A stretch of DNA of 64,000 bases from an uncultured Thermodesulfobacteriota bacterium (GTDB lineage Bacteria; Desulfobacterota; Desulfomonilia; UBA1062): the NCBI GenBank assembly GCA_942491525.1, contig CALOBW010000030.1:291029-355028 (forward strand), written 5' to 3'. Numbering within the stretch: the first letter of the stretch is position 1; each line of letters begins with the position of its first letter. This document shows positions 1,920 through 60,053 of the stretch, piece by piece. The position numbers and the translations under genes are program-made. The notes beneath the pieces are model-generated. The model made no database searches and was not told the origin of the DNA. It saw only the letters and a program-made list of their open reading frames with translations.

Positions 1920-3115
1920 CGGGGTTTCTTCTCCACAAAGGTGGAGGCCAGGCCGCCGGTCGCGGTCTCGCGGTAGAGGCTCGGCAGATCGTGACCGGTC
2001 TCCTTCATGGTGCGCACCACCTGATCAAAGGAGATCATGTGCTCGCCATCTGAAAGCAGGGCATACTCGGCACAGTTCAGGGCCCGGGTGGCGGCCATGG
2101 CGTTGCGCTCGATGCAGGGGATCTGCACCAGCCCCTTGACCGGATCGCAGGTCAGCCCGAGGTGGTGTTCAAGCCCCATCTCGGCAGCATACTCGATCTG
2201 GCGCGGACTGCCCCCCAGCAGCTGGGCCGCCGCTGCCGCGGCCATGGCGCAGGCCGTACCGATCTCGCCCTGACAGCCGACTTCGGCGCCCGAGATTGAG
2301 GCGTTCTTCTTGACCAGATTGCCCACCAGGCCGGCCGTGGCCAGGGCCCGCACGATCTGCTGCTCCTTATGCTTGTTCTTCTCATTCAGATAGCGCAGGA
2401 CCGCCGGCAGCACACCGCAGGAGCCGCAGGTGGGCGCAGTCACCACAATGCCGCCGCCGGCATTCTCCTCGGCCGTGGCCAGGGCGTAGGCCGCGATGAT
2501 GCCGGTGCGACGACTGATGTTGTTGAGCTGACGCGACTGGTTATAGACCTGGGATGATTTGCGCTGCAGCTTCAGACCGCCGGGCAGAACACCCTCGGCG
2601 TCCAGACCGTTTTTCAAGGTCTGCTGCATCTGCAGCCAGACCTGACGCAGGAAATCCCAGATCTCCGGCCCTTCACACTCCTCCACATACTTCCAGAGCG
2701 GGTTGCCGCTATCCAGGGCCCAGGCGATGATGCGCTCCATGCTGTGCAGCGCGTAGACCGGCGACGGATCCGGCTCGCCTTCGGTCTTGAGCGCGCCGCC
2801 GCCGATGCTGAAGACCTGCCAACTGCTCAGGACCGCGCCGCCCGCATCAAGGGCCTCAAAGAGCATGCCGTTAGGATGAAAGGGCAGAACAACCTCTGGT
2901 TTTTCGACTATTTCAACATTTTGCAGGGGCTGGCGGATGGCCTGCAGGGTCATGTGCCCCTCGCCGGTGGCCCCCAGAGATCCGTAGAGCTCGACCCGGA
3001 AAGATTCAGCGCCCGGGTTGCGCTGCGCAAAGATCTCGGCTGCCCGCCCGGGTCCCATGGTATGGCTGCTGGATGGCCCCATACCGATCCTGAAGAGTTC
3101 GCGTAGAGATTCCAT
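1916..3115 (-). CDS. sdaA: L-serine dehydratase (L-serine ammonia-lyase), iron-sulfur-dependent, single-chain form
   Basis: The N-terminus MESLRELFRIGMGPSSSHTMGP matches the SdaA signature (E. coli [22 protein letters not shown]). The Cys-containing segment TAPTCGSCGVLPAVL matches the SdaA [4Fe-4S] ligand region. Its stop overlaps the stop of the convergent lipoprotein gene. Confidence 0.8.
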   Translation of the reverse strand: MESLRELFRIGMGPSSSHTMGPGRAAEIFAQRNPGAESFRVELYGSLGATGEGHMTLQAIRQPLQNVEIVEKPEVVLPFHPNGMLFEALDAGGAVLSSWQVFSIGGGALKTEGEPDPSPVYALHSMERIIAWALDSGNPLWKYVEECEGPEIWDFLRQVWLQMQQTLKNGLDAEGVLPGGLKLQRKSSQVYNQSRQLNNISRRTGIIAAYALATAEENAGGGIVVTAPTCGSCGVLPAVLRYLNEKNKHKEQQIVRALATAGLVGNLVKKNASISGAEVGCQGEIGTACAMAAAAAAQLLGGSPRQIEYAAEMGLEHHLGLTCDPVKGLVQIPCIERNAMAATRALNCAEYALLSDGEHMISFDQVVRTMKETGHDLPSLYRETATGGLASTFVEKKPR

Positions 3116-3153
3116 ACTGCTATTATAACTTCAAGAAAGGGGCAGACAAACCC

Positions 3154-3519
3154 TTAGTGATGAGAACAGTCGTGGTGGTCGCAGCCGCCGCCCTGATCAG
3201 TCAGTGAACCGTCGAGCCAGCTCTGGGCGACCTCGCGGGCGATACCCTGACAACCGCGCACAACCTGGATGCCGTTGTTCAGCAGCATGTTGGCTGCGCC
3301 CTGGCCCATGTTGCCGCCCAGCAGGACGCTCACGCCCATCTGGGAGAGGGTCGGAATGATGTTGGACTTGCAGCCGCAGCCCGGCGGCGGGGTCAGCTGT
3401 TCCTCGGCGATAATTGTACCATCCTCAACGGTAACGGTATAGATGGTGAAGGCTTCACAGTGACCAAAGTGGGAATCAACGGCTCCGTCGCGGGAGGGAA
3501 TGGCAATTTTCATGATCAA
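3154..3519 (-). CDS. NifX/NifB-like dinitrogenase FeMo-cofactor-family (DUF-type) small protein
   Basis: This 121-aa protein has MKIAIPSRDG...VDSHFGHCEAFTIYTV and GGNMGQGAANML motifs typical of the NifB/NifX/NafY-like fold common in anaerobes. Confidence 0.65.
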   Translation of the reverse strand: MIMKIAIPSRDGAVDSHFGHCEAFTIYTVTVEDGTIIAEEQLTPPPGCGCKSNIIPTLSQMGVSVLLGGNMGQGAANMLLNNGIQVVRGCQGIAREVAQSWLDGSLTDQGGGCDHHDCSHH

Positions 3520-3579
3520 CTCCTTATTAGTTAGTGAAGACTATCTACACCTGCCAGGAGCGGAATTCAATGCATATAA

Positions 3580-3680
3580 CTATGGGGCCGACTCGCCATT
3601 ACCAGCCGACCCCGATGAAGGCCCCGTCTTGCGTCTTTCGCAATCACGCGGGCCGCGTCAACCAGCTGGTGCGGCCCGTC
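3580..3680 (-). ncRNA. Conserved structured 3'-UTR element, copy 1, downstream of lipoprotein gene 3690..5126
   Basis: On the minus-sense transcript this gives hairpin GGGCCGC-accagcugguugac-GCGGCCC (plus-strand 3650-3677) and hairpin UUGCG-aaaga-CGCAA (3629-3643). The conserved block GACGCAAGACGGGGCC and a distal GGGGCC...GGCCCC pairing (3584-3589 / 3620-3625) follow. All of this recurs with compensatory changes downstream of the paralog (5440..5535). Confidence 0.5.
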
Positions 3681-3689
3681 AGCAGTAGA

Positions 3690-5126
3690 TTAGAATGGGC
3701 CACCCACATGCCACAGGAGCAGACAGGTGGTCATGGGGATGCCGGCAACAAAGTAGTCATAACCGGTATCCAGGGCCATCAGGATATCGATGCCATCCAG
3801 CACTTCAGCAACTTCAGCAGGCATCTCAACCTCTATCCAGCCCAGCTCGGCAAAACCGAGAGCCAGCATCTCAATAATCTCAAAGGTCTCTTCATCATAC
3901 TCTTCAACATTATTGAAATCGATCTTGATCAGCTTGCCGCTCAGCTCACTGTAGGTGAAGGTCAGGGCATGAATCGGAATCCAGACGATCTCGGGCTCAT
4001 AGATCAGAGTTTCAACTTCAGGACGGATCAGCATGGCATCTTCCATAATGGTCATAACACGCACACCATCTTCAAAGACGTTGGTTGTCCGTGCCACCGG
4101 CATGGCGTCATCCAGACAGGGGCTACCACAAGGGCTAAAATGCCCGCCACCCATCAGCAGCGACATGGTCCTGGTCAGCAGACGGCCAGCCTCATCGCGA
4201 ACATATTCATAGATAGTTTTGGGTATCCAGAGAACCGGCGCATCCGGTCCATCGAGCGGGGGATGCGGAATGTGGAATATGGTGCGGGTCTTCTCCTCAC
4301 AGTACTCAGTCTCTGCGCGGTAGACCGGGAATCTGGGCCAGAGTGAACGGTTGAGCGAGGTTTCCTGCACAACCAAACGACCCTTGTCATCATACTCATT
4401 GATCAGAATGTAGTAACCGATCTCAGCCCAGTGGGAAATTGCGGGGTCGAAATTCTCAAAGATGATACCGTCAATATCACCGGCATCATTATACGAGAAG
4501 ACCAGACGGAAAAGCATGCTGTGCAGATTGTGAGGATGGGGTCCCCAATATCCCTCAGCATCAAAGGCCATCTCCTCCTGGCCGCTTTCAACAAAGAGCG
4601 GGGTCAGATCAAAGGTGTATGAGATGAGCCGACCATCATAGCCCATCAATACCTCTCCGGCGGGAACAGGCTCGTCAAAAACCGTCTCAGCAATCGTATG
4701 ATGGATAATGTGCATCAGTATTTCACGAATGCACTCCTGATCATTAAGAACTTCGATAGATCCGACTGTCAGAATTCCCTCTGTCTCGAGAGTTGTCTCC
4801 ATCGTCAAGGTTGCATAGAGCGTTGAACCCAGGAGAACCTCTTCTGGCTCGATTACCTCCAGAACTTCAACTTCAGGATCTACAGGCGCTGGTCCATAGT
4901 CATACCGGCCGATTGAGACGGTCTCTAGAACCATGACACTCTCTAAAACTTCTTCGGGAATAACAGGCTCCTCAGGTTGAGGGCACTCAGGACAAACATC
5001 TTCACCGGCACCTTGACTTTGAGCTGCTAAAGCAAAAGGAATGTAATTATCTTCTTCTTTAGCGCAACCAGATAGCGCTAAGGCTGTGAGGAAGATATAT
5101 AGCAAGGCTGTTGTAAATCGTTTCAT
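3690..5126 (-). CDS. Lipoprotein, paralog A of a tandem pair (unknown function)
   Basis: An AAGGAGG RBS precedes MKRFTTALLYIFLTALALSGC (lipobox LSGC). An acidic low-complexity linker (EED..GAGEDV..PEEPVIPEEV) is followed by a globular region sharing blocks with paralog B (EVLMGYDGRLISYTFDL, ARTTNVFEDGVR, IKIDFNNVEEYDE). Confidence 0.7.
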   Translation of the reverse strand: MKRFTTALLYIFLTALALSGCAKEEDNYIPFALAAQSQGAGEDVCPECPQPEEPVIPEEVLESVMVLETVSIGRYDYGPAPVDPEVEVLEVIEPEEVLLGSTLYATLTMETTLETEGILTVGSIEVLNDQECIREILMHIIHHTIAETVFDEPVPAGEVLMGYDGRLISYTFDLTPLFVESGQEEMAFDAEGYWGPHPHNLHSMLFRLVFSYNDAGDIDGIIFENFDPAISHWAEIGYYILINEYDDKGRLVVQETSLNRSLWPRFPVYRAETEYCEEKTRTIFHIPHPPLDGPDAPVLWIPKTIYEYVRDEAGRLLTRTMSLLMGGGHFSPCGSPCLDDAMPVARTTNVFEDGVRVMTIMEDAMLIRPEVETLIYEPEIVWIPIHALTFTYSELSGKLIKIDFNNVEEYDEETFEIIEMLALGFAELGWIEVEMPAEVAEVLDGIDILMALDTGYDYFVAGIPMTTCLLLWHVGGPF

Positions 5127-5543: not shown

Positions 5544-6899
5544 TCATAGTCCGATATGACCCAGCAGCCATGAATTAACAACGGGCTGGCTGGCTGCAAA
5601 GTAGTCAAAGGCACCATCGAGCGCCACCAGGATATCAACGTTCTCAATGAAATCGAGCGCATCAACAGGAACTTCCATCTCAACCCAGATCAACTCGGCA
5701 AAACCAAGTGGCAAAAGTTCGGTGGGCTCGAGGGTCATCTCGTCAAATGCAGTCACATTGTTGAAGTCGATCCTGATCAGTTTAGCGGTGATTTCATCAT
5801 AGCTGTAAGTCAGAACATGGAACGGTATCCAAAGGATCTCAATTTCCATTACCTCTTCTACCATAACCTCATGCTCAACTGCCTTGCTCATAATGGTCGA
5901 AATGCGTACACCATCTTCAAACGTATTGGTGGTACGCGCAACCGGGCTGAGCATGCTCAGCTCACAAACCATAGGCTCTTCACCCACCGGACCGGACAGT
6001 AGCGACATGGTCCTGGTCAGCAGACGGCCGGAAACATCGTGAGTATAGTCATAGACAACCTTCCTAGGTCCAGGACCGCCGGCACGCACATAGACCACGC
6101 GCGACTTATCTTCACAGTAGCCGAAGTGAGCTGTATAGACATCCAGGGTCTCGATCTTGATCAGATTAACCTCAACAGCATTGACCTTGACAGTTTTGGA
6201 CATGATCAAAGCCTGCTGCATCAAGATACGGCCCTCGCCTTCTTCCTCATAGGTGTTGATCAACATGTAGGTGAGCAGCTCCGACCAGTTGGATGTCCGC
6301 GGTACAAAGTGGTCAACGATTACGGAGTTGATATGACCCATGGCGTCATAGGTGAAGCGTAGCCGGAAAATGGCACTGAAGAGATCTTCATCTTCTTCAG
6401 CCACATTCAAAGGCCCATTCCAGAAGGCGGTAAGGTCAACGGTATATGAAATCAGGCGACCATCATAGCCCATATGAACTTCACCGGCGGGGATGGGACC
6501 TTCAAGCTCGGTCTCTTCCGGAAGCATGAGACCCAGCAGGCTTAGAACGATTTCATCGGCCAACTCACTGATCTCCAACATGCCAATTGTGCGGATAACA
6601 CCGGCACCAAAGGTGGTTTCAAGTCCGAGAGTCGCAATAATTGTCTCGAGAGGATCCTCACCATAGATGCCAAAATTGATGGCATCCAACACCAAAGCCG
6701 GCTCGGTCACCTCTTCATCGTCACCATCACCATTGTCACCTCCGCCATTCAGATCATCGCCGCCGACATCTTCACCGCCGGCACCTAAGCCCGATAGGGC
6801 AATAGCGTATGGGATATAGTTATCTTCTTCTCTGGTACAACCCGATAGAGCCAGGCTTACTAGGAAGAGTACCACCAAGATTGTTGTAAATCTTTTCAT
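5544..6899 (-). CDS. Lipoprotein, paralog B of the tandem pair (unknown function)
   Basis: An AAGGAGG RBS precedes MKRFTTILVVLFLVSLALSGC, followed by a Gly/Asp-rich acidic linker (GGEDVGGDDLNGGGDNGDGDDEE). Conserved blocks are shared with paralog A (EVHMGYDGRLISYTVDL, ARTTNTFEDGVR, IRIDFNNVTAFDE). Confidence 0.7.
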   Translation of the reverse strand: MKRFTTILVVLFLVSLALSGCTREEDNYIPYAIALSGLGAGGEDVGGDDLNGGGDNGDGDDEEVTEPALVLDAINFGIYGEDPLETIIATLGLETTFGAGVIRTIGMLEISELADEIVLSLLGLMLPEETELEGPIPAGEVHMGYDGRLISYTVDLTAFWNGPLNVAEEDEDLFSAIFRLRFTYDAMGHINSVIVDHFVPRTSNWSELLTYMLINTYEEEGEGRILMQQALIMSKTVKVNAVEVNLIKIETLDVYTAHFGYCEDKSRVVYVRAGGPGPRKVVYDYTHDVSGRLLTRTMSLLSGPVGEEPMVCELSMLSPVARTTNTFEDGVRISTIMSKAVEHEVMVEEVMEIEILWIPFHVLTYSYDEITAKLIRIDFNNVTAFDEMTLEPTELLPLGFAELIWVEMEVPVDALDFIENVDILVALDGAFDYFAASQPVVNSWLLGHIGL

Positions 6900-11285: not shown

Positions 11286-12437
11286 ATGATTCCAGCCTTG
11301 ATTGCATTTTATGTCTTATTCCCGGTCCTTGTGATCTGGCTCTGCTACCGTTTTGAATTCTTCAACAAGCTCGGGGCCGTAATTATCTGCTATATCGTGG
11401 GCATCACCCTGGGCAACATCGGCATCCTGCCCGAGGGTGTGGCCGGTCTGCAGGACACCCTGAGCAGCGCGGCCGTTGCCGTTGCCCTGCCCCTGTTGCT
11501 CTTCTCCATGGACGTCAGGGCCTGGCTCAAGCTGGCCGGCAAGGCCATTATCTCCATGCTGGGCGCCACCGTGGTAATCGTGGCCGTGGCCTCCCTGGCC
11601 GTGATTATGATCAACGGCCAGGTGGAGGAAGCCTGGAAGCTCGGCGGCATGGCCATCGGCGTCTATACCGGCGGCACCCCCAACCTGGCCGCCATCAAGG
11701 CCGCCCTCAATGTTGACCCGACAACCTTCATCATCATCCACACCTACGACACCCTCTTGAGCCTGATCTACATCATTCTGGCCATGAGCGTGGCCCAAAA
11801 GTTCTTCAACCGCTTCCTGCCCAAATTCCAGTTTGCCGATGCCGAGCAGGAGGCCGACGACCTGGAGGCTGAGGACATCCACTCCTACGCCGGCATCTTC
11901 AAACGTGATACGGTGCTCAGACTGCTGGGTGCAACCCTGCTGTCCGGCCTGATCCTGGCCAGCGCCCTGGGCATCGCCAGCCTCTTTCCGCAGTCATACA
12001 CAACCTCCATCACCATCCTGATGATCACATCGCTGGGCATCGCGGCCTCCTTCGTGCCCCAGGTGCGCGCAATCGATAAAACTTTCCAGCTCGGCATGTA
12101 CATCATCCTGGTCTTCTGCCTGGTGGTGGGATCAATGGCCAACCTCAAGGATCTGATCAACATCAACTGGCACCTGATGTTCTTCGTGACCTTCTGCATC
12201 TTCGGCTCGCTCATGCTGCACGCCCTCTTCTGCAAAATATTCGGCATCGACACCGACACCTTCATCATCACCTCGGTCTCGGCCATCTGCTCGCCGCCCT
12301 TTGTGCCGGTGGTGGCCAGCGCGCTTAAGAACAAGGAGATCATCCTCTCGGGTCTGACCACCGGCATCATCGGCTACGCCATCGGCAACTACCTGGGCAT
12401 CAGCTGCGCCTACATACTCAAGGCCCTGCTGGGCTAA
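11286..12437 (+). CDS. Polytopic membrane protein (possible DUF819-like transporter), probably controlled by the divergent TetR
   Basis: An AGGAGG RBS lies 6 nt upstream of the ATG at 11286; the 11262 start given in the ORF track is less likely. There are about 10-12 TM helices and no signature I can name confidently. Confidence 0.45.
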   Translation: MIPALIAFYVLFPVLVIWLCYRFEFFNKLGAVIICYIVGITLGNIGILPEGVAGLQDTLSSAAVAVALPLLLFSMDVRAWLKLAGKAIISMLGATVVIVAVASLAVIMINGQVEEAWKLGGMAIGVYTGGTPNLAAIKAALNVDPTTFIIIHTYDTLLSLIYIILAMSVAQKFFNRFLPKFQFADAEQEADDLEAEDIHSYAGIFKRDTVLRLLGATLLSGLILASALGIASLFPQSYTTSITILMITSLGIAASFVPQVRAIDKTFQLGMYIILVFCLVVGSMANLKDLININWHLMFFVTFCIFGSLMLHALFCKIFGIDTDTFIITSVSAICSPPFVPVVASALKNKEIILSGLTTGIIGYAIGNYLGISCAYILKALLG

Positions 12438-12448
12438 CTGGAGGAAAT

Positions 12449-13960
12449 ATGCAAATACCTGAACACGGCAGAGATTATAATAAAGTACTGGAAGAGATGC
12501 AGGCATTCCGCGGCGAGGACGCCAACTACCTGGACGCGCGCGTCTGGTCGCTGGTCTACCATCTCAACCATGAGCACACCGACTTCCTGAAGCAGGCCCA
12601 CGGGCTCTACTTCTCGGAGAATGCATTAAACCCCATGGCCTTCAAGAGCCTCAAGCGCTTCGAGCATGAGGTGGTGCGCATGGCCGCCAGCCTGCTGCAC
12701 GGCGACGATAAGGTGGTCGGCACCATGACCTCGGGCGGCACCGAAAGCTGCCTGCTGCCGGTCCTGACCTACCGCGAATATGCCAAGTCAAAACGCAAAC
12801 TGCCCTTCAAACCCGAGATGATCGCGCCCGAGAGCATTCATGTGGCCTGGGAGAAGGCCGCCAAATATTTCGGCGTCAAGATGGTGCATGTGCCCCTCAA
12901 GGATGACTGCCGCATGGACCTGGAGGCGGTGCGCAAGAAGATCAACCGCAACACCATCCTCATAATCGGCTCGGCGCCCTCCTATCCGCATGGGGTAATC
13001 GACCCCATCGCCGAGCTGGGCCGGCTGGCCCAGAGCAAGAACATTCCCCTGCACGTGGACTCCTGCCTGGGCGGCTTCCTGCTGCCCTTTGTGGAGCAGA
13101 TCGGCTATAAAATTCCGCCCTTTGACTTCCGTGTGCCCGGCGTGACATCCATATCCGCTGACGTGCACAAGTACGGCTTCGCGGCCAAGGGCGCCTCAAC
13201 CATCCTCTACCGCAGCATGGACTACATGCAGCACCAGTTCTTCATCCACGAGGACTGGCCCGGCGGCGTCTTCGCCTCCCCGGCCCTGCTCGGCACCCGC
13301 CCCGGCGGAGCAATCGCCGCGGCCTGGGCCGCGCTGAACGCCATCGGCCAGGAGGGCTACCGCAAAATTGCCACCGAAATCATGGGGATCACCAACCAGC
13401 TCAAAGAGGGCATCAACGCCATCGAGGGGCTGGAGATCATGAGCAACCCCGAGATGAGCGTCTTCGCCTACCGATCGACCGACCCCGAGATCAACATCTT
13501 TGCCGTCGGCGACATCATGGAGGAACGCGGCTGGCACATCGACCGGCTGCAGCGCCCCGAGGGCCTGCACGCCATGGTCACCCCGGCCCACGCCAAGGTC
13601 GTCCCGACCTACCTGAGCGACCTCAGGCAGGCCGTGGCAGAGGTCAAGGCCAACCCTGGCCTGGCGGCCAAGGGCAACGCCGCCATGTACGGCATGATCG
13701 CCAACGTGCCCTTCAGGGGCATGATCAAGAAGGAGGTCAGCAAGATGATGCAGGATATGTACGGACCCGCAGGCCAGATTACCAACAATATTGATGGACT
13801 GAAGTTCACTATGACTAAAGGGTGTCAACCTAAACTCTTTACCGAAGTGGTAAAAAAATTAGAAAAGGATAAAAAGATAGAAAGAACTGGTGAACTCAAA
13901 TATAGTTCGACGAATATTCATAAAGCGCCAAAATATAATATCAAGGTAATCACACAATGA
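12449..13960 (+). CDS. PLP-dependent sphingosine-1-phosphate-lyase-like / group II decarboxylase-family enzyme; the last ~58 codons are encoded by low-GC foreign DNA
   Basis: The PLP-lysine block SADVHKYGFAAKGAS matches the S1P lyase block ISCDTHKYGFAPKGSS. HVDSCLGGFLLPF and GGTESCLL are typical of the fold-type I decarboxylase family. GC content drops sharply at about 13778, yet the frame stays open to 13960. Confidence 0.7.
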   Translation: MQIPEHGRDYNKVLEEMQAFRGEDANYLDARVWSLVYHLNHEHTDFLKQAHGLYFSENALNPMAFKSLKRFEHEVVRMAASLLHGDDKVVGTMTSGGTESCLLPVLTYREYAKSKRKLPFKPEMIAPESIHVAWEKAAKYFGVKMVHVPLKDDCRMDLEAVRKKINRNTILIIGSAPSYPHGVIDPIAELGRLAQSKNIPLHVDSCLGGFLLPFVEQIGYKIPPFDFRVPGVTSISADVHKYGFAAKGASTILYRSMDYMQHQFFIHEDWPGGVFASPALLGTRPGGAIAAAWAALNAIGQEGYRKIATEIMGITNQLKEGINAIEGLEIMSNPEMSVFAYRSTDPEINIFAVGDIMEERGWHIDRLQRPEGLHAMVTPAHAKVVPTYLSDLRQAVAEVKANPGLAAKGNAAMYGMIANVPFRGMIKKEVSKMMQDMYGPAGQITNNIDGLKFTMTKGCQPKLFTEVVKKLEKDKKIERTGELKYSSTNIHKAPKYNIKVITQ

Positions 13961-14694
13961 GCACAAGCAAAATCGAATGGACCGAAAGCACCTGGAACCC
14001 TACATCCGGATGCACAAAAATATCTACTGGCTGCAAAAATTGTTATGCCGAACGTATGGCCAAACGACTACAAGCAATGGGGATATCCAAATACAAGGAT
14101 GGATTCCAATTGGCTATACACCCAGAGGTACTCAACGAACCATTCTCATGGAAAAATCCCAAATTTGTCTTCGTCAATTCGATGAGTGATCTATTCCATG
14201 AAGATATGCCTTTAGAATATATCAAAAAAGTTTTTACAGTAATAAATGAAAACCCTAAGCATACATTCCAAGTCTTAACAAAGCGTGCTGAGATTTTAGA
14301 AGAATATTCACCTCATCTTAATTGGACAAAAAATATATGGATGGGGGTAACAGTTGAGGATCAGACCTGCGTATCACGCATAGATAACTTGAGAAAAACT
14401 TCCGCCACTGTAAAATTTCTATCAATGGAGCCACTACTAAGCAATATATCTGATATTAACCTAACAGATATCGATTGGGTTATAGTTGGAGGAGAATCTG
14501 GTCCTGGAGCCAGACCCATGAATGAAAGTTGGGTGCTAAACATCAAAAACCAATGCTCAGATTACAACGTACCATTCTTTTTTAAGCAGTGGGGTGGTGT
14601 TAACAAAAAAAAGGCAGGGCGACTACTATTGGGAAAAACTTGGGATCAAATGCCTATAACTCATCCCATAATGCAAAAAGAGGTACATTTTTAA
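13957..14694 (+). CDS. Phage Gp37/Gp68-family protein (DUF5131)
   Basis: The N-terminus MSTSKIEWTESTWNPTSGCTKISTGCKNCYAE matches the IEWT..TWNP..GC...GC..CYA consensus of PF07505 and gives a CX6CX2C cysteine triad. The gene sits in a ~0.95-kb AT-rich patch with host-atypical codon usage. Its start codon overlaps the upstream stop (ATGA). Confidence 0.7.
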   Translation: MSTSKIEWTESTWNPTSGCTKISTGCKNCYAERMAKRLQAMGISKYKDGFQLAIHPEVLNEPFSWKNPKFVFVNSMSDLFHEDMPLEYIKKVFTVINENPKHTFQVLTKRAEILEEYSPHLNWTKNIWMGVTVEDQTCVSRIDNLRKTSATVKFLSMEPLLSNISDINLTDIDWVIVGGESGPGARPMNESWVLNIKNQCSDYNVPFFFKQWGGVNKKKAGRLLLGKTWDQMPITHPIMQKEVHF

Positions 14695-14738
14695 ACATTC
14701 CTTTCAACCTCACTACCAATCTCAGAATATATCCGAGC

Positions 14739-15239
14739 TCACCCCTGCCTCTCCCTAACCTCAGCAATCACCTCAGCCCCAACCACATCCATCTTCTCAA
14801 AGGCATCAGCATCAAAGAGGGCAAACTCGCCTTGAGCCGTAGCGCAAATGTTGCCCTCACTGTCCTCAATCTGAGCAGCCATGATGGCGCGGCGCTCGTC
14901 GAGATGTTCGTGCACCCAGCCGCTCACGCTCAGCTCGCTCTCGATCAGGATGGGTTTCCTGAACCTGACATTGATCTCCTTGGTCAGGATGAAGCGCTTG
15001 AGCAGATGGATGGCGCTCCAGGCCATGGCCTCATCCAGCAGGGCCGAGATGATGCCGCCGTGCACCAGGTTGTGCCAGCCGCGCATGTATGCCGGCACGG
15101 TCACGGTCGAGTAGAGTTTCTGACCGTCGGTGGCAAAGCGCATCTTGAGACCGTAGGGGTTCTCAGAACCGCAGCAAAAGCAGACCGTGTCGATGCCCTC
15201 CAGCTCAACTAACTCTCCATTTTCCATAGGACTATCCAT
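14739..15239 (-). CDS. PaaI/4HBT-family hotdog-fold thioesterase
   Basis: The C-x2-C N-terminal segment and the HGG motif region (NLVHGGIISALLDEAMAWSA) match PaaI-type thioesterases. The likely start is MDSPMENGEL. The 5' extension in the ORF track reaches into the divergent promoter region. Confidence 0.7.
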   Translation of the reverse strand: MDSPMENGELVELEGIDTVCFCCGSENPYGLKMRFATDGQKLYSTVTVPAYMRGWHNLVHGGIISALLDEAMAWSAIHLLKRFILTKEINVRFRKPILIESELSVSGWVHEHLDERRAIMAAQIEDSEGNICATAQGEFALFDADAFEKMDVVGAEVIAEVRERQG

Positions 15240-15350
15240 CACGCCTCCAGCACCACTTAGCCTAGCATGTGCGACCGACCAGATCAATCTTGCGAACTCT
15301 AAACACATCATCTAAAGATAGTGTATTGAACAGACAGCAACGAGGGCTAT

Positions 15351-18260
15351 TTGAAGCAACAGATCATCAGACACGAGGCGCTGGCCCACTGCCAGCTGCT
15401 CTTTCAGGACGACTTCAACCTACTGGTCATCGAGGGCCAGGCCGGCCAGGGCAAGACCACCCTGGCCCAGCAGCTCAGAGAGTGCGCGCCCATCAGGACC
15501 ATCTGGCACAGCTGCCAACCGGCCGAGGCCGACCCCCTGAGCTTCTGCCAGAACCTGGCCGTCAGCCTCAAGCTGCCGCCGCTCACACCGATGATGACCG
15601 ACTACCTGCAGCTGCAAATCTGCCGGGCGCCCCTGGATGACTGCCTGCTGTTGCTGGACGACTACCATCTGATCATGGAGCAGCCCCGCAACCTTGAGCT
15701 GCTGGAAAGTATGCTGCTCAAGAGCGGTCTCAAACTGGGACTGATCACCCGCCATTACCGCGAAAAAATCGGCCAGGAGCGCCAGACCATCTTCATCGAC
15801 AACGAACTGCTGGCCATGAACCTGGATGAGACCGCCAGCCTGCTCACGGCCCAGACCCCCCTGGCCGCGGCCAAGGTGCGTCAGATCCACGCGCTGACCG
15901 AGGGCTGGGCCAGCGGCATCTGCCTGATCCGGGAGCGTTTGCGCCACGGCAACCATGAGCTGCCGGCCGGCAACATCCTGCAGGCCATGGATCTGATCAG
16001 CGAGACCCAGAGTCCCGAGCTGATCATGCTGGCCAATTTGGAACGCATTCCGGCCGGCCTGCCGCAGGACAGAGCACTTCTGGACGATCTGGCCGCCCGG
16101 GCCTGCTTTGTGCGCCGGGACGAAACCCACTACACCCTGCACCAGCTGCTGAGGGAGGCCCTCAGCAGGCGCCAGGCCTCCCTGAGTGCCGCCTTCAGGC
16201 ATCAATGGGCCCAGCGCGCCGGCCAGTGGTGCCTGGATAACGGCCTGATTGAGGAGGGCCTGACCATCCTGGCCATGGGCAACTGTTTCGACCAGCTCAG
16301 GGAGGGCATCAGGGAGCACGGCATGGGTTTGCTGGCCCTGGGGCGTTTCAGCCTGGTCGACGCACTGCTGGACAACCTTTCAGACCGGCTTGAGGACCCC
16401 TGGCTGCAACTGATGCGCGGCACGATCCTGCTGGCCCTCAAGCCCGAGGAGACCAGGCCGTGGCTGGTCAGGAGCCTCAAGGGCATGCAGGCCGCCGGCG
16501 ATCACGAGGGCGAACTGCACGCCACGGCGCGCCTGATCGAGTATGAGGCCCTGATGGGCGGCAGCTTCGGCCAGATCGACATGAGCCGGGCCGTCAGCCT
16601 GCTGGGCAACCATCCGCTCAACCTGCTGGCGGCCATCGCGCTGGGCTCCTGCTACGCCCGCAACGGCGATGACGCCGCCGAACTGGTCAGGCGGCTGCAG
16701 AACAAGCTGGCCCAGTCCAGCTGCAGCCAGCTCGATCTCTTCAGCTCACTGGTGCCCTGCGTCCACCAGATCCTGCGCACCGACGTCAACAGGGCCCTGC
16801 TAATCCTGGACCGCTACGTCTCGACCGATTCGGCCCTCAGCCCGGCCGGTCTCTTCGCCATCCACTTCGCCCTGCTCAACATCCTCAGGATCAGGGGCCG
16901 CGATTTTAAGCTGACCAACGACTACATCCAGAGCCGCTTCCACCATCTGCTCTCACGCTCCCACCTGGGCGGCCTGCAGAGCCTCTGGCTATCGGGACGG
17001 CACCTGAGCGAGGACAACGCCCAGCTGGCGCTTGAGACGCTGATGGCCGCCGACACCCGCGACTGCCGCAATCTGCAGGCCATCGCAAGCTCCTGGCAGG
17101 TCCTCTACCTGGCCCAGCTGGGCCGCCACCAGGAGGCCGCCCGGGTTGCCGCCGAAGCCTGGGAACTGCGCCAGCAGGAGGGCGGCTACTACTATACGCG
17201 CCAGTGCCGCATCATCCTGGCCTGCGCCCGCAGCCTCGACCCCGAGGACAGCGCGGCGGCCGCTGAGCTCAGCCAACTCATAGGTGAGCACTCCGACCAT
17301 CAGGACGCCTCGATCCAGGCCATGGCCCAGGGCTACCTGGCCAGGTGCCAGCTGCAGCGCGGCCAGCAGGCCCAGGCCCTGCGCTACACCGAGGCGATGC
17401 TGATCACCCTCGGCGGCATCGACTGCTGCAACTTCATGGGCTTTGCACCCCGCACCTTTGAGCCCCTGCTGGTGCTGGCCGTCAAGCATACGCGACAGAC
17501 CGCCCGGGCCAGGATGATCGCCAACCAGCGGCTCGGCCTTGACATTCTGGACGACGGCAGCCTGGTGCCGCGGATCAAGGTTGAAGCCCTGGAAGGCGGC
17601 AAACTTGAACTGAGCCACGCCGGGCGCCGGCTGAAACTGCACTCCGCCCAGCAGGTGGAGCTGCTGAGCGCCATCATCAGGTCCGGCGGCGGGCAGCTGA
17701 GCGCCCACCGGCTGCATGACGTTCTCTGGCCGGGCCAGGAGTACAACCGCGCCCGCCTGGCCAACCTCATGAAGCGGCTGCGCAGCCAGATTGAGACGCT
17801 CAGCGGCCAGAAACAGCACTATCTGACCATCCGCGGCGGCTGCGTCATCCTGCAGCACCTCTGCTGGGACGACACGAACGCCGGCCTGCTGGAGGGCATC
17901 GACCTGCTGACCGAGCAACGCCCCTGGAGCGCCGCCGTGCCGCTGCTGCGCGCCTTTGACCAGCTGCGCCGGCCCACGGTTCTGCCGGCCGACCCGGACC
18001 TGGTGCGCCGGGCGGCCCTGCTCTGGTGCCCGCAGCTCAAGCAGACCCACGATCCGGAGCTGGCCATCAAGATCGCCGAGCAGGCCCGCAGGCATACGCC
18101 CCGCGATGCGCGCCTCAGCCGCCTGACCTACGACCTGCTGATGGAGAACAACCAGAAGGCCCAGGCCCTCAATCTGGTGGATGAACTGCGCTGCAACCTC
18201 AGAGACTACCCGCCCGAGGGCCGCGAAACAGTCATGGACAGTTTCTGGAATGGCTCGTGA
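15351..18260 (+). CDS. Large STAND-type (MalT/AfsR-like) ATP-dependent transcriptional regulator with an internal OmpR-like winged-helix
   Basis: Walker A is GQAGQGKTTLAQ at residues ~30-41, and Walker B is hhhhDDYH (LLLLDDYHL). Long Leu/Ala-rich helical (TPR-like) repeats follow. A trans_reg_C-like segment is present near residues 760-820 (HRLHDVLWPGQEYNRARLANLMKRLRSQIE). GC is about 70%. Many antisense ORFs here are artefacts. Confidence 0.55.
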   Translation: MKQQIIRHEALAHCQLLFQDDFNLLVIEGQAGQGKTTLAQQLRECAPIRTIWHSCQPAEADPLSFCQNLAVSLKLPPLTPMMTDYLQLQICRAPLDDCLLLLDDYHLIMEQPRNLELLESMLLKSGLKLGLITRHYREKIGQERQTIFIDNELLAMNLDETASLLTAQTPLAAAKVRQIHALTEGWASGICLIRERLRHGNHELPAGNILQAMDLISETQSPELIMLANLERIPAGLPQDRALLDDLAARACFVRRDETHYTLHQLLREALSRRQASLSAAFRHQWAQRAGQWCLDNGLIEEGLTILAMGNCFDQLREGIREHGMGLLALGRFSLVDALLDNLSDRLEDPWLQLMRGTILLALKPEETRPWLVRSLKGMQAAGDHEGELHATARLIEYEALMGGSFGQIDMSRAVSLLGNHPLNLLAAIALGSCYARNGDDAAELVRRLQNKLAQSSCSQLDLFSSLVPCVHQILRTDVNRALLILDRYVSTDSALSPAGLFAIHFALLNILRIRGRDFKLTNDYIQSRFHHLLSRSHLGGLQSLWLSGRHLSEDNAQLALETLMAADTRDCRNLQAIASSWQVLYLAQLGRHQEAARVAAEAWELRQQEGGYYYTRQCRIILACARSLDPEDSAAAAELSQLIGEHSDHQDASIQAMAQGYLARCQLQRGQQAQALRYTEAMLITLGGIDCCNFMGFAPRTFEPLLVLAVKHTRQTARARMIANQRLGLDILDDGSLVPRIKVEALEGGKLELSHAGRRLKLHSAQQVELLSAIIRSGGGQLSAHRLHDVLWPGQEYNRARLANLMKRLRSQIETLSGQKQHYLTIRGGCVILQHLCWDDTNAGLLEGIDLLTEQRPWSAAVPLLRAFDQLRRPTVLPADPDLVRRAALLWCPQLKQTHDPELAIKIAEQARRHTPRDARLSRLTYDLLMENNQKAQALNLVDELRCNLRDYPPEGRETVMDSFWNGS

Positions 18261-56448: not shown

Positions 56449-57120
56449 TCAGTCATCTTTCCATGACTTCACTTCACTCTTCAGCCAGTCTGCCCATTCA
56501 TCGATGCCTTCGCCGGTACGGGCTGAGATTGGAATAATCTTAATCCTGGGATTCAGTTTGCCGGCCCGCTCCCTGACCGCGTTGAGATCAAAATCAAAAT
56601 GCGGCAGAACGTCTAGCTTGTTGATCAGCAGAACATCGCAGATCTGAAACATCAGGGGATATTTCAGCGGCTTGTCATCGCCCTCGGGTACCGACAGGAT
56701 CATCGCATTTTTGACAGATCCGGTATCAAACTCGGCCGGACAGACCAGATTGCCGACATTTTCCAGAACAACAAGATCCAGTTCATCGACACCCAGCCCG
56801 CCAAGTCCCTGACGGGTCATATCGGCATCCAGATGGCACATGCCGCCGGTGTGCAGCTGGATAACTTTGACGCCGGCATTGGAAATCGTGACCGCATCCA
56901 CGCTGGAATCGATATCCGCCTCCATTATTCCGATGCGAAGGTCATCCTTAAGCGAACTGATGGTCTGAACCAGGGTGGTGGTTTTACCGGCCCCGGGCGA
57001 ACTCATAAGATTTAGCAGGAACGTGCCCTTGCTCTTCAACTCTGCACGCAGGCGTTCCGCATCCTGATTATTATCCGCAAAAACACTCTGCTTAATGTCC
57101 AATACGCGAAAATCTTTCAT
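56449..57120 (-). CDS. hypB: Hydrogenase nickel-incorporation GTPase HypB (no His-rich N-terminus)
   Basis: The G1 motif SSPGAGKTT and the CH metal site (GGMCHLDA) are present, with homology to the HypB/UreG/CobW family. Confidence 0.85.
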   Translation of the reverse strand: MKDFRVLDIKQSVFADNNQDAERLRAELKSKGTFLLNLMSSPGAGKTTTLVQTISSLKDDLRIGIMEADIDSSVDAVTISNAGVKVIQLHTGGMCHLDADMTRQGLGGLGVDELDLVVLENVGNLVCPAEFDTGSVKNAMILSVPEGDDKPLKYPLMFQICDVLLINKLDVLPHFDFDLNAVRERAGKLNPRIKIIPISARTGEGIDEWADWLKSEVKSWKDD

Positions 57121-57131
57121 AGATCCCCTTA

Positions 57132-57701
57132 TTAATCCGACTGTTTTTTGAGTCGCTCTTGCAGGAGGGCAATGCTGTGGTCAGCCCACTCGATATACAT
57201 GTTGAAAATGCGAAAACCGAAATCCACGGTCAGCTCCCAGTAGAAGAAATCATTCGAGGGAACTTCATAAGCCGAGAGCATCCCATCAACATTCTGGTAG
57301 GATTGCTGCAGCCGCGCTCGCTTGATTTCCGCCAGCTCACGGAACCGTTTAATAGAGTGCAGAAGCTCCTCGTCCGGAATTTTTGCGGCAAAGAAGACCT
57401 TGGACAGATATGGCAGGCGCTGGGCGAAATGGGGTTCCTCGCCATAGTCGACGAGCCAGTTGAAGAGCGCCTCCTCGCCGGCCGGTGTGATCGAGAAGAG
57501 TTTCTTGGTCGGACGGGAGTCCTGTTCTTCGCGCCGTTGCGTAACATAGCCATCGACGAGCAGGGCATTCAGTTCCCGGTAGATCTGGCTTTGCTGGGCC
57601 GAGAAAAAAAACTTCAAACTGCCGTCAAACAGTTTGTAGATGTCATAGCCTGACATCTCCTTGTAACTGACCAATCCGAGTATGGACATTCTAAGCGACA
57701 T
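57132..57701 (-). CDS. PadR-family transcriptional regulator
   Basis: The N-terminal wHTH (ILGLVSYKEMSGYDIYKLF...SQIYRELNAL) fits PadR. Confidence 0.8.
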   Translation of the reverse strand: MSLRMSILGLVSYKEMSGYDIYKLFDGSLKFFFSAQQSQIYRELNALLVDGYVTQRREEQDSRPTKKLFSITPAGEEALFNWLVDYGEEPHFAQRLPYLSKVFFAAKIPDEELLHSIKRFRELAEIKRARLQQSYQNVDGMLSAYEVPSNDFFYWELTVDFGFRIFNMYIEWADHSIALLQERLKKQSD

Positions 57702-57877
57702 ATCTCACCCTTATTTACAGCAGAATACTCTACATGTGATATATATAACATGTATAAACAACGCAACCACTATTCCACCTCCGGATCACAGACAGAACAT
57801 CAAACCAGACTGACGGGCAGTTTTCGCCCAGGACACGCGGATCAGAACAACTTCAACTCAGGCGAATATCATCAGCA

Positions 57878-57913
57878 GGCGCAACTCATAATCAGGTTCC
57901 GAAACTCACGGGG
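57878..57913 (-). repeat. Fragment of a paralog of gene 52498..53202 (direct repeat of 53044..53080; 33/36 identity)
   Basis: The reverse complement encodes PREFRNLIMSC, matching RREFRNLIMSC of the HExxH protein. There is no surrounding ORF, and it sits at the left edge of an AT-rich islet. Confidence 0.5.
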
Positions 57914-58214
57914 CATTTATGACTGATGAATTTCTAATTTAAAAACTAGGCAATGGGTGCCACTGGCTAAGCGCAGCTTGCCAGTGTGGGAATCGCACGG
58001 GCAAGACGTCAAGTTAGATAAACGGGATGTTTGCCTTGGCCCGTGGCACACGGCGAAGGTAAACATTACTTTTGATAAGTGTGGATTTCTTGGAATGTGG
58101 GCAATGGCTAGTTATGTGCAGTCTCACAAAAAAAACAAAAAGCAAGACCCGCCCCCAATATACCCTGCTCGCTTTCAGGCTGGTACATAGTTTGGAGGAA
58201 GGTCACGACAAGAC

Positions 58215-58784
58215 TCATCCGATATAAACATAAAAGACATAAAACCACACCACAACCAGTGGAGAGATGATATATATAGCAATGAGCAATAAATCCTGGA
58301 TACTAACCTCCTGGTGACTCACAACCGTATTTGCATCTTCGTCCCAGTATGTCGTCTTCGTCTTTTGTAGATAAAAGAAAGATGACCCCTGTGCGATATA
58401 ATCGACAACTGGCAATCCAAGCCCTTGCCCATAAAACCAGAGAATAAACTTCCGTCTCAGGGCTTGAATGTAGGATAATTCACTGCCGTCTTTATTGGTA
58501 ACCCTGATGTTAAATAACGCCTTTCCAATTGTAGTACCAAATACAGCAAACATCGCAGCTTCCCAAAAATTATAAAAAAAGTGCAACGCAAGAATGAAGG
58601 TAAACTTAGAATGGTCCTGAACCGGATAATGTAATACCCAAGCACCTCCAAGCACAATCAAGAAAAAGAAATATATATCAGCCCCCCGGGCCATACATCT
58701 TATAAACGGTCTAATCTGTGGACCTGATGGAACATACTCTATATCTGAAGCTAACTTAGCTTGCGAACGTTTCTTGCTGCTCAT
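58215..58784 (-). CDS. RDD-family membrane protein
   Basis: GTTIGKALFNIRVTNKDGSELSYIQALRR matches the RDD signature, and TM helices are present. It lies in low-GC DNA. A GAGGG RBS precedes the start MSSKKRSQ. Confidence 0.55.
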   Translation of the reverse strand: MSSKKRSQAKLASDIEYVPSGPQIRPFIRCMARGADIYFFFLIVLGGAWVLHYPVQDHSKFTFILALHFFYNFWEAAMFAVFGTTIGKALFNIRVTNKDGSELSYIQALRRKFILWFYGQGLGLPVVDYIAQGSSFFYLQKTKTTYWDEDANTVVSHQEVSIQDLLLIAIYIISPLVVVWFYVFYVYIG

Positions 58785-58885
58785 TAAATAACAACCCTCC
58801 ATACTTCTTTTATTTACCGATTGTACATCAACGCCACACATGTACGCACTGGGTCAGGTCTTGCGTTTTGCCACTATTCTTCAAA

Positions 58886-58936
58886 ACTGCACATAACTGC
58901 TATTTATCATGTCGATCCAGGGACTGCAATTGACGC
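58886..58936. repeat. Imperfect ~50-nt direct repeat, copy 1
   Basis: ACTGCACATAACTGCTATTTATCATGTCGATCC..CAATTGACGC recurs at 59517-59568 with an 18-nt perfect core and ~75% identity overall. Confidence 0.5.
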
Positions 58937-59126
58937 TTTATTGGCTAGTTAGGTGGAATCGGGAGTTTCAATGTAGGTCGTGTTGAGCTTGCGAAACCCG
59001 ACAGCGGCCTTGGGGCAATTGTTGGTTTTCATTCTTCATGCCGACCTGCGAACTAAGTATCTATATATCAAGGGTCTGCCATTTAACAGCTGCCAAGCTA
59101 AGCTCTCAATATTACTCAAATATTTA

Positions 59127-59155
59127 TTGACATCCTCGCTTCCTGGCTATACTGT
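59127..59155 (+). promoter_or_regulatory. Near-consensus sigma-70 promoter TTGACA-N15-TATACT (or N17-TACTGT) driving small ORFs
   Basis: TTGACA is at 59127-59132 and TATACT at 59148-59153. AAGGAG at 59170 is followed by ATG 59182, which opens a 17-codon ORF, then the GTG-initiated 88-aa ORF. Confidence 0.5.
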
Positions 59156-59204
59156 AAATTTAAAACTTAAAGGAGACTACAATGTCGAATGACCAAAAAT
59201 TGAA

Positions 59205-59471
59205 GTGTTACAAAGAATACTTCTTAAGATCCTAAAGAATGGAAAAAGCATCAAAGAATTAAAATTGTTTACAGATATTATTAGCTCAACGAACTTACCT
59301 AAAGATCAAATCAGTGATGTAGTGAACGATGCGATTAAAATGAGTTTAATTGAATCTTCCATCGAAACGATTTCAATAAAAGGAGATAATGCCAGTCTAG
59401 TGCAATTGCCACAAGGAACCACTTATAAGATAACCCCTAAAGGTGAAGAATACGTAGAAGATATTAGATGA
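59205..59471 (+). CDS. Small hypothetical protein (88 aa, GTG start) in the AT-rich islet; possibly a frameshifted continuation of the 17-codon ORF at 59182
   Basis: The composition is low-GC and K/I/E-rich, with no motif I recognise. The supporting evidence is weak. Confidence 0.3.
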   Translation: MLQRILLKILKNGKSIKELKLFTDIISSTNLPKDQISDVVNDAIKMSLIESSIETISIKGDNASLVQLPQGTTYKITPKGEEYVEDIR

Positions 59472-59516
59472 ATTAGTCAATTTAACAAATCCAAATGTGA
59501 CACGTTAAAAGGTAAC

Positions 59517-59568
59517 AGACTGCACATAACTGCTATCTATCACGCCAATCCCCAAACCACAATTAACG
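59517..59568. repeat. Imperfect ~50-nt direct repeat, copy 2
   Basis: The sequence is described under copy 1 (58886..58936). This copy abuts the stop of gene 59574..59966. Confidence 0.5.
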
Positions 59569-59573
59569 CCCCA

Positions 59574-59966: not shown

Positions 59967-60053
59967 GCCTCCATCAGATCATTAACCTACCACGGCTGCG
60001 CGGGAATGACAAAGAGAGAGCCCGGGGAAAAGAACTTCCCCGGGCGTAATTAA

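What the first reader, a model, noticed from the sequence alone, without database searches (positions are those of the whole stretch)
13778..14738. Low-GC insertion carrying a Gp37/Gp68 (DUF5131) gene, grafted in frame onto the 3' end of an S1P-lyase-like PLP enzyme
GC content collapses at about 13778, inside the decarboxylase ORF. The last ~58 codons (..NNIDGLKFTMTKGCQPKLFTEVVKKLEKDKKIERTGELKYSSTNIHKAPKYNIKVITQ) are encoded by AT-rich DNA yet stay in frame, and the Gp37/Gp68 start codon overlaps the stop (ATGA). A random AT-rich stretch would very rarely give a 60-codon open frame. The likeliest explanation is that the inserted fragment began inside a donor homolog's 3' end, replacing the native C-terminus by homologous or illegitimate recombination and bringing the Gp37/Gp68 gene with it. 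The Gp37/Gp68 protein has an N-terminal CX6CX2C triad (C19, C26, C29) that could ligate a metal or Fe-S centre. The family has no known function, and here it is translationally coupled to a sphingolipid-type PLP lyase.
Basis: partly seen in the sequence, partly recalled or inferred. Interest (0 to 1): 0.55.

Follow-up and report, generated by a model that had tools for sequence, protein, structure and literature searches.

The report
Deletion-truncated TcmP–DUF5131 cassette fused to lyase
The AT-rich stretch is the leftover of a horizontally acquired two-gene module (TcmP plus a radical-SAM-type DUF5131 protein); a 1.2-kb deletion removed most of the first gene and joined its last 62 codons in frame to the neighbouring PLP lyase, which is ordinary genome decay rather than a designed fusion.

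Summary
GC falls from 0.62 to 0.38 across 13770-14738, the lyase ORF runs on for 63 AT-rich codons, its stop overlaps the DUF5131 start (ATGA), and DUF5131 has an invariant CX6CX2C.

The tail is the C-terminus of TcmP, the usual partner of DUF5131. It hits PADLOC PDC-M30A positions 308-364 of 368 and is 52-63% identical to other TcmP C-termini.

Two independent metagenome contigs (L007, L008) carry this DUF5131 gene at 100% DNA identity behind an intact 373-aa tcmP. L007 also holds the native lyase 3' end, its stop and two hairpins. The window equals L007 minus 1223 bp, with the junction at 13769|13770. The deletion removed 33 native lyase codons and the stop, the intergenic region, and 310 complete tcmP codons plus the first base of codon 311. 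The frames happened to join, a 1-in-3 chance. The ATGA coupling was inherited from tcmP-DUF5131.

This is a truncated copy of a known, functionally untested module. Interest is low.

The parts
11286..12437 (+). DUF819 membrane protein gene, the conserved upstream partner of the lyase. It is host context and the probable source of transcription now reaching DUF5131.
   Evidence: Pfam PF05684, E = 4e-40. An AGGAGG site lies before the ATG at 11286. The DUF819-lyase order is kept in 12 relatives.
12449..13769 (+). Native part of the sphingosine-1-phosphate-lyase-like PLP enzyme: codons 1-440 plus the first base of codon 441.
   Evidence: PF00282, and PDB S1P lyases at E = 4e-115. It is 64-76% identical to homologues of 447-477 aa up to ...MYGP (A1). 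GC is 0.618.
13769..13770 (.). Deletion junction. Relative to the undeleted allele in L007, 1223 bp are missing here.
   Evidence: L007 1-29 equals window 13741-13769, and L007 1253-2269 equals window 13770-14786, both at 100%. The junction codon is g|ca, giving Ala in place of the lyase Glu and the TcmP Ser.
13770..13960 (+). 3' remnant of tcmP (TcmP residues 312-373 plus stop). It is now read as residues 442-503 of the lyase ORF.
   Evidence: PADLOC PDC-M30A profile positions 308-364/368, E = 5e-9. BLASTP to TcmP C-termini gives E = 2e-9 and 1e-5. 62/63 identical to P0241 (A5). GC is 0.337.
13957..14694 (+). Intact DUF5131 / 'phage Gp37/Gp68' gene. It is radical-SAM-superfamily type, with CX6CX2C at C19/C26/C29 and a GGES motif at 178-181.
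14695..14738 (.). Low-GC 3' non-coding end of the cassette, running up to the thioesterase stop codon.
   Evidence: GC profile and sequence. Identical in L007.
14739..15239 (-). Convergent 4HBT-type thioesterase gene, forming the host right flank.
   Evidence: PF03061. A GGAGG site lies before the ATG at 15239. GC is 0.567 over the full ORF 14739-15311.

Best explanation
An ancestor of this genome acquired a low-GC cassette of about 2.05 kb between the convergent lyase and thioesterase genes. The cassette comprised an upstream region, tcmP (373 aa; class I SAM-methyltransferase fold plus a C-terminal winged-helix-like domain) and, overlapping it by ATGA, a DUF5131 gene (radical SAM superfamily).

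In the genome sampled here, a later 1223-bp deletion removed four things: the last 33 lyase codons with the stop; the two hairpins after the lyase; the tcmP upstream region; and the first 310 complete codons of tcmP plus the first base of codon 311. The ends have no exact microhomology, only a patchy 7/11 match. They fell in the same codon phase, so the lyase ORF now reads through 62 tcmP codons to the tcmP stop.

Consequences (inferred). The lyase keeps its complete catalytic core but has a foreign 62-residue tail, part of a winged-helix domain lacking its first helix. The TcmP methyltransferase-like domain is gone, so the two-gene module (PADLOC candidate PDC-M30) is incomplete and probably inactive as a system. 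DUF5131 is intact. It has lost its own upstream region and is now most likely transcribed by read-through from the DUF819-lyase operon, and translated through the inherited ATGA overlap.
For: Shown:
1. The tail is the TcmP C-terminus: PADLOC PDC-M30A 308-364/368; BLASTP E = 2e-9; A5 alignment 62/63 to P0241 and 52-63% to others. P0241 is full-length TcmP (TIGR04474 123.9 bits against a cutoff of 53; PDC-M30A 1-363/368).
2. The undeleted allele exists. L007 and L008 come from two sequencing runs and hold tcmP plus DUF5131, with 1017 bp identical to window 13770-14786. L007 1-29 is identical to window 13741-13769, and L007 encodes the family-typical lyase C-terminus KMMQDMYGPECRMPMDSSGEEPLMIRVGARVLNRLQRLRKS*.
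3. The same right junction with the thioesterase occurs in both alleles.
4. All close DUF5131 homologues examined have a 371-384-aa TcmP upstream with a 4-bp overlap.
5. None of the 13 relatives' loci carrying a full-length lyase and downstream flank has the cassette within the available flank.
7. Hairpins after the lyase stop in L007 (-30.6 kcal/mol, z = -4.2) are absent from the window.
Against: - The fused allele is seen only in this one assembly. Exact-protein look-ups of the fusion and its neighbours found nothing else, so its frequency in the population is unknown.
- The source organism and an empty (cassette-free) site were not recovered, so the original insertion event and its mechanism are not reconstructed. 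The flanking repeat GAGCT(CA)CCCCTG is not significant: 16% of shuffles score as well.
- Expression, loss of system function and lyase activity are inferences.
- About half of phage-borne DUF5131 genes have no adjacent TcmP (42 of 80), so DUF5131 may not need TcmP.
Confidence: 0.85

Rival explanations
1. One reading: the inserted fragment started inside the 3' end of a donor lyase homologue, so the AT-rich tail is a foreign but homologous lyase C-terminus brought in together with DUF5131.
For: The tail is in frame and the junction lies near the end of the conserved lyase core.
Against: Thirteen lyase homologues share a C-terminal consensus unrelated to the tail (A1). PDB lyases align only to residue ~441. 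The tail matches the TcmP C-terminus end to end. The undeleted allele shows both the native lyase end and the full tcmP.
Confidence: 0.02
2. Assembly artefact: the real genome carries the intact cassette as in L007, and the 1223-bp gap was created by the assembler or by a chimeric read.
For: Two independent read sets give the intact form. The fused form is on record only in this assembly.
Against: The two breakpoints share no exact k-mer; there are 0 identical bases at the junction and only a 7/11 patchy match. A graph assembler therefore has no path between them unless reads contain the junction. The sequence on both sides is 100% identical to L007, and the join is co-linear and in the same orientation, as expected for a genuine deletion allele.
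Confidence: 0.1
3. Direct capture of a fragment: only the 3' 969 bp of a cassette was inserted here by illegitimate recombination, and L007 represents an independent full-length insertion at the same place.
For: No empty site is available to order the events.
Against: This needs two independent insertions with an identical right junction (window 14695-14786 equals L007 2178-2269) and 100% identical cassette DNA. A single deletion explains everything.
Confidence: 0.03
4. Selected neo-function: the fusion is adaptive. For example, the winged-helix remnant gives the lyase a new interaction, or DUF5131 has been recruited to act with the lyase operon.
For: DUF5131 is undamaged and is now in the lyase transcription unit with translational coupling. 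Solo DUF5131 genes are common in phage contigs.
Against: The 100% DNA identity to the intact allele means the deletion is very recent, with no time for selection to be visible. The retained tail lacks the first helix of its domain. No lyase relative shows any association with DUF5131. An in-frame join has a 1-in-3 chance.
Confidence: 0.04

Closest known systems
TcmP / 'phage Gp37/Gp68 family' (DUF5131, PF07505) gene pair: NCBIfam TIGR04474 'three-Cys-motif partner protein' with its three-Cys partner; PADLOC candidate system PDC-M30 (A+B)
   Same: The DUF5131 gene is a full-length, high-scoring member (PDC-M30B E = 1e-123; PF07505 339 bits). The 4-bp ATGA overlap with the upstream gene and the low-GC, accessory character are as in other cassettes. 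RefSeq plasmids annotate the same pair next to integrases and IS elements.
   Different: Only the last 62 codons of the A gene (TcmP) remain, and they are read as part of a lyase. The methyltransferase-like core that TIGR04474 models is absent. The pair's function has not been tested anywhere I could find; papers only list it.
Radical SAM superfamily, nearest solved fold spore photoproduct lyase (4fhc); also viperin, lipoyl synthase, NifB
   Different: The Cys spacing is CX6CX2C rather than the canonical CX3CX2C. There is no sequence-level hit to any solved structure. No cluster binding, SAM cleavage or substrate is known.
Sphingosine-1-phosphate lyase-type PLP enzymes (PF00282 fold; StSPL 3mad/5eud, human SGPL1 4q6r)
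   Same: The core (residues 3-441) aligns at E = 1e-112 to 4e-115 with the HK(Y)G PLP-lysine motif conserved. It has the conserved DUF819 upstream partner as in relatives.
   Different: The native ~33-residue basic C-terminal tail is replaced by 62 TcmP residues. Natural short homologues of 447 aa that end right after the core exist (P0203), so the core may tolerate this.
Gene fusions created by deletions in decaying defence or mobile islands (general phenomenon)
   Same: A deletion without microhomology between two co-oriented genes gives a chimeric ORF and orphans the downstream gene.
   Different: Nothing distinctive. Here both alleles happen to be on record, so the event can be reconstructed to the base.

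Membership tests
DUF5131 / phage Gp37/Gp68 (PF07505) | Full-length match to the Pfam model above the gathering score | tested here: met
   339.1 bits against a cutoff of 28.9; residues 4-233 on profile 2-243/243.
DUF5131 / phage Gp37/Gp68 (PF07505) | N-terminal three-Cys motif | tested here: met
   C19, C26 and C29 (CX6CX2C) are invariant in 49 aligned members (A2).
Radical SAM superfamily | Partial TIM-barrel radical SAM core fold | tested here: met
Radical SAM superfamily | Canonical CX3CX2C cluster motif | tested here: not met
   The spacing is CX6CX2C. Variant spacings are known in the superfamily (my own knowledge), so this does not exclude membership.
Radical SAM superfamily | Binds a [4Fe-4S] cluster and cleaves SAM reductively | not testable with these tools
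   Needs biochemistry.
TcmP (NCBIfam TIGR04474) | Match to the 263-position core model above cutoff | tested here: not met
   The window tail gives no NCBIfam hit, because the core is deleted. The undeleted allele P0241 scores 123.9 bits against a cutoff of 53 on residues 13-268.
TcmP (NCBIfam TIGR04474) | C-terminal region homologous to that of TcmP proteins, ending at the same stop | tested here: met
   PDC-M30A 308-364/368, E = 5e-9. A5 gives 62/63 to P0241 and 52-63% to nine others.
TcmP (NCBIfam TIGR04474) | Adjacent to a PF07505 gene | tested here: met
   ATGA overlap at 13957-13960. The same overlap is seen in L001-L005 and L007.
PADLOC candidate system PDC-M30 | Both components (A and B) present and complete | tested here: not met
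   B is complete (E = 1e-123). A is reduced to 57 of 368 profile positions. The system is therefore incomplete here.
PADLOC candidate system PDC-M30 | Demonstrated anti-phage activity | not testable with these tools
   It is only listed as a candidate. Papers found merely count it.
Sphingosine-1-phosphate lyase-like PLP enzymes | PLP-dependent decarboxylase-fold core with the conserved H-K PLP lysine | tested here: met
   PF00282 E = 1e-25. PDB S1P lyases E = 4e-115. H240 and K241 are invariant in A1.
Sphingosine-1-phosphate lyase-like PLP enzymes | Native C-terminal segment of the close subfamily (MPMD...basic helix) | tested here: not met
   It is replaced from residue 441 on (A1). It is present in the undeleted allele L007.
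Sphingosine-1-phosphate lyase-like PLP enzymes | Cleaves sphingoid base phosphates | not testable with these tools
   The substrate is unknown. NCBIfam gives only below-cutoff hits to MfnA and Gad models.

The most novel reading that the evidence does not exclude
The deletion allele is a natural experiment in which a radical-SAM-type DUF5131 enzyme has been separated from its TcmP partner and placed under a metabolic operon. If the allele is maintained and DUF5131 is active alone, as the many TcmP-less phage copies hint, it would show that DUF5131 is the autonomous effector of the pair and TcmP only a targeting or regulatory subunit.
Probability: 0.07. Interest if true: 0.4.

Novelty: new member of a known kind. 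Interest (0 to 1): 0.15.

Why it matters
The result matters mainly as a correction. What looked like a purposeful graft of an unknown-function gene onto a sphingolipid-type lyase is a recent deletion scar inside an acquired TcmP-DUF5131 cassette, so no functional link between DUF5131 and PLP lyases should be inferred.

The locus has minor value in two respects. Both alleles are on record, which gives a base-exact example of how a deletion without microhomology creates a chimeric ORF and orphans a gene. The work also gives structure-based annotations for a widespread, uncharacterised pair: TcmP has a class I methyltransferase fold plus a winged-helix tail, and DUF5131 has a radical SAM fold nearest to spore photoproduct lyase. 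The pair would be better studied in an intact copy.

Tried and rejected
- **Empty site or source genome.** A genome-contig scan with the lyase gave 70% as the best identity, with no source genome and no thioesterase synteny. Two JGI metagenome scans, for the right flank and for a cassette 27-mer, gave 0 hits. Exact-protein look-ups of the fusion, the thioesterase and DUF819, with two start choices each, found nothing on record. Cluster look-up gave no names or accessions.
- **Donor lineage.** blastn against phages and plasmids gave only partial hits of 66-74%, so no donor was identified.
- **Target-site duplication or terminal repeats of the cassette.** The imperfect direct repeat GAGCT(CA)CCCCTG at both borders is matched or beaten by 16% of shuffles. 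I rejected it as evidence.
- **Promoter and terminator scans.** Counts were within about one sd of the shuffle mean in L007. In the window the promoter-like count was above shuffles (7 against 2.7, sd 1.6), but five of the seven sites fall in the AT-rich insert. Neither scan is informative about function.
- **Relocation of the deleted segment.** I looked for the deleted 1223 bp elsewhere in the window; it is absent.
- **Insensitive first TcmP HMM.** My first local TcmP HMM, built from close relatives, found a partner in only 6-7 of 80 viral loci. An NCBIfam check showed it was insensitive. After broadening it, the count is 38 of 80. The earlier number should be disregarded.
- **Sequence searches of solved structures.** Neither DUF5131 nor TcmP gave any hit.
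Full report
**Observation**

The composition break is real. GC is 0.60-0.70 up to about 13750, 0.34-0.42 across 13800-14700, and above 0.54 again from about 14750. Measured on the features, the native lyase part (12449-13769) is 0.618, the segment 13770-14738 is 0.377, and the convergent thioesterase is 0.567.

A 503-aa PLP enzyme lies at 12449..13960. A 245-aa DUF5131 gene lies at 13957..14694, and its ATG overlaps the upstream stop (ATGA).

The tail frame is open for 63 codons, while the other two frames carry 8 and 7 stops. A random sequence of that composition would stay open over 62 codons with probability about 0.0065.

C19, C26 and C29 (CX6CX2C) are present and invariant in 49 family members (A2).

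**What the tail is**

Lyase homologues are 447-477 aa long. In a 14-sequence alignment, homology runs to ...KMMxxMYGP. The homologues then share a C-terminal segment (MPMD..G..P..VR..A..M.R....K) that bears no resemblance to the window's tail (A1). Solved sphingosine-1-phosphate lyases align only to residue 422-441.

The 60-aa tail instead hits the C-terminal end of PADLOC model PDC-M30A (profile 308-364 of 368, E = 5e-9). The downstream gene hits PDC-M30B at E = 1e-123. So the tail belongs to the partner gene of DUF5131.

In every context of the closest DUF5131 homologues (72-75% identity), the gene is preceded by a 371-384-aa gene that overlaps it by 4 bp (L001-L005). These upstream proteins are TcmP, the 'three-Cys-motif partner protein' (TIGR04474, 97-129 bits against a cutoff of 53). 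Their last ~57 residues align with the window's tail up to the stop codon (BLASTP E = 2e-9 and 1e-5).

**The undeleted allele**

The exact DUF5131 protein (P0001) is also encoded on two contigs assembled from other sequencing runs: L007 (ERR9669565, 2269 bp) and L008 (ERR9670067). On both it follows a tcmP gene, complete at 373 aa on L007 and cut by the contig end at 323 codons on L008.

L007 1253-2269 is 100% identical to window 13770-14786 (1017 bp, including 92 bp of right flank and the end of the thioesterase gene). L007 1-29 is 100% identical to window 13741-13769.

Between these two blocks, L007 carries the following:
- the native lyase end, ...KMMQDMYGPECRMPMDSSGEEPLMIRVGARVLNRLQRLRKS*, which fits the family consensus;
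- two strong hairpins (-30.6 kcal/mol, z = -4.2);
- an AT-rich upstream region;
- tcmP codons 1-310 and the first base of codon 311.

The window is therefore L007 minus positions 30-1252, a deletion of 1223 bp. The three sequences at the junction are:
- lyase: GGACCCG|AATGCCGG
- tcmP: TTTTAT|CAGGCCAG
- window: GGACCCG|CAGGCCAG

There is no exact microhomology, only a patchy 7/11 match after the breakpoint. The hybrid codon g|ca reads Ala, where the lyase had Glu and TcmP had Ser. This is the only difference between the 63-aa tail and P0241 residues 311-373 (A5).

The deletion length is 3n+2, which happens to bring the two originally offset frames into register. That outcome has a 1-in-3 chance and needs no special explanation.

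The reverse order of events is not credible. It would require an insertion that simultaneously recreates a family-typical lyase C-terminus and 310 in-frame TcmP codons.

**Is the junction an artefact?**

The fused form is on record only in this assembly, and the intact form appears in two read sets. This leaves some room for an assembly error.

However, the breakpoints share no k-mer, so a graph assembler could not join them without junction-containing reads. The join is also co-linear and flanked by perfect identity on both sides. I put the artefact at about 10%. Read mapping would settle it.

**The cassette is accessory, with no link to lyases**

A scan of species-representative genomes found 20 loci encoding lyase relatives. 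The 15 closest are 64-70% identical and come from Desulfobacula, Syntrophaceae, Desulfomonilia, Smithella and other MAGs. Twelve loci, including L006, keep the DUF819-lyase gene pair. None of the 13 loci that carry a full-length lyase with downstream flank has TcmP or DUF5131 in that flank.

Conversely, the neighbours of close cassettes are restriction- or defence-type genes: ResIII plus RE_endonuc in L004, GmrSD_N and DUF2971 in L005, DUF1016/YhcG in L001. On RefSeq plasmids the neighbours are integrases and IS elements.

I could not find a cassette-free site or the donor. An imperfect direct repeat at the cassette borders is not significant. How the cassette first arrived therefore remains open.

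**What the two proteins are**

Three further points agree with this:
- the invariant CX6CX2C and GGES motifs;
- a sub-threshold match to 'radical SAM mobile pair protein A';
- the listing of DUF5131 as a radical SAM subgroup on RadicalSAM.org (PMC9477430).

*TcmP.* P0241 scores 123.9 bits on TIGR04474 and matches PDC-M30A over its full length. Its model (pLDDT 82) has a class I SAM-methyltransferase fold over residues ~12-268, with a DFFAGSG motif. The structural matches are TYW4 (E = 3e-6), Trm1 and METTL16.

A poorly predicted linker follows, then a C-terminal helix-helix-helix-strand-strand unit (297-370) that weakly resembles winged-helix domains. The deletion breakpoint at residue 311 falls just after the first of those helices, so the lyase has inherited an incomplete domain.

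*Working idea for the intact pair.* The pair may be a SAM-dependent, nucleic-acid-directed modification or defence module. This is an inference from the folds and neighbourhoods only. I found no experimental paper: TcmP and PDC-M30 appear only in tables.

**Consequences for this locus (inferred)**

The lyase core, including the H240-K241 PLP motif, is intact. Natural 447-aa homologues that stop right after the core exist (P0203). Activity may therefore survive, with a 62-residue foreign appendage.

The lyase hairpins and the tcmP upstream region are gone. DUF5131 is thus probably expressed only by read-through from the DUF819-lyase unit, using the inherited ATGA coupling.

As a two-component system, the module is incomplete.

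Whether DUF5131 alone does anything is open. In 80 IMG/VR loci, 38 have an adjacent TcmP (upstream, downstream or convergent) and 42 have none within 3 kb. My first, narrower HMM badly undercounted the partners, as one search showed.

The 100% DNA identity between the two alleles over 1046 bp shows that the deletion is very recent.

**Verdict**

The feature is a truncated member of a known, annotated but functionally untested gene pair. Nothing here suggests new biology linking radical SAM DUF5131 proteins to sphingolipid-type lyases.

Noticed in passing
IMG/VR loci L031-L110 (DUF5131 at about 3001-3750 in each): Among 80 phage or prophage contigs with DUF5131, 38 have a TcmP directly adjacent, in three different arrangements: upstream on the same strand, downstream on the same strand, or downstream and convergent. 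The other 42 have none within 3 kb. The pairing is frequent but not obligatory, and gene order is not fixed.
   Followed up: partly
L007 132-200 (deleted from the window): Two strong hairpins lie directly after the native lyase stop: a 13-bp stem CUUCGAGGGGGAGC/GUUCCCCCUUGAG and an 8-bp stem AGGUAUCC/GGAUACUU. Together they give -30.6 kcal/mol with z = -4.2. The first is probably the lyase terminator. The second lies at the start of the low-GC DNA.
   Followed up: partly
L007 158-169 and window 14735-14747: An imperfect direct repeat, GAGCTCCCCTG / GAGCTCACCCCTG, sits exactly at the two GC-content borders of the cassette. The right copy overlaps the thioesterase stop. It is suggestive of a target duplication but is not significant against shuffles (16%).
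   Followed up: yes
L004 2958-6567; L005 1506-4563; L001 3406-4458: Close TcmP-DUF5131 cassettes sit beside restriction- or defence-type genes (ResIII plus RE_endonuc, GmrSD_N, DUF2971, DUF1016/YhcG). This is consistent with a defence-island habitat.
   Followed up: no
window 15351-18260 (+): A 969-aa ORF next to the thioesterase has an N-terminal AAA_22/NACHT-like P-loop, a weak TPR-like match (PF09976 TPR_21, E = 0.0013, below cutoff) in the middle and a weak Trans_reg_C-like match. It looks like a STAND-type regulator. GC is 0.64-0.73, the highest in this part of the window.
   Followed up: no
window 3690-5126 (-) and 5544-6899 (-): Two large ORFs (478 and 451 aa) in a lower-GC stretch (0.47-0.51) have no Pfam match at E <= 0.001.
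   Followed up: no
window 57000-60000: A second low-GC region (0.42-0.49) holds PadR-family regulator, RDD and DUF6713 genes on the minus strand. It may be another accessory segment.
   Followed up: no
L006 232-7191 and loci L009-L023: The DUF819 transporter-like gene followed by the S1P-lyase-like gene is a conserved pair across Desulfobacterota-type and other MAGs. In L006 the pair is preceded by TetR, a radical SAM gene and an E1/transketolase-like fusion, which hints at a conserved but uncharacterised catabolic operon.
   Followed up: no
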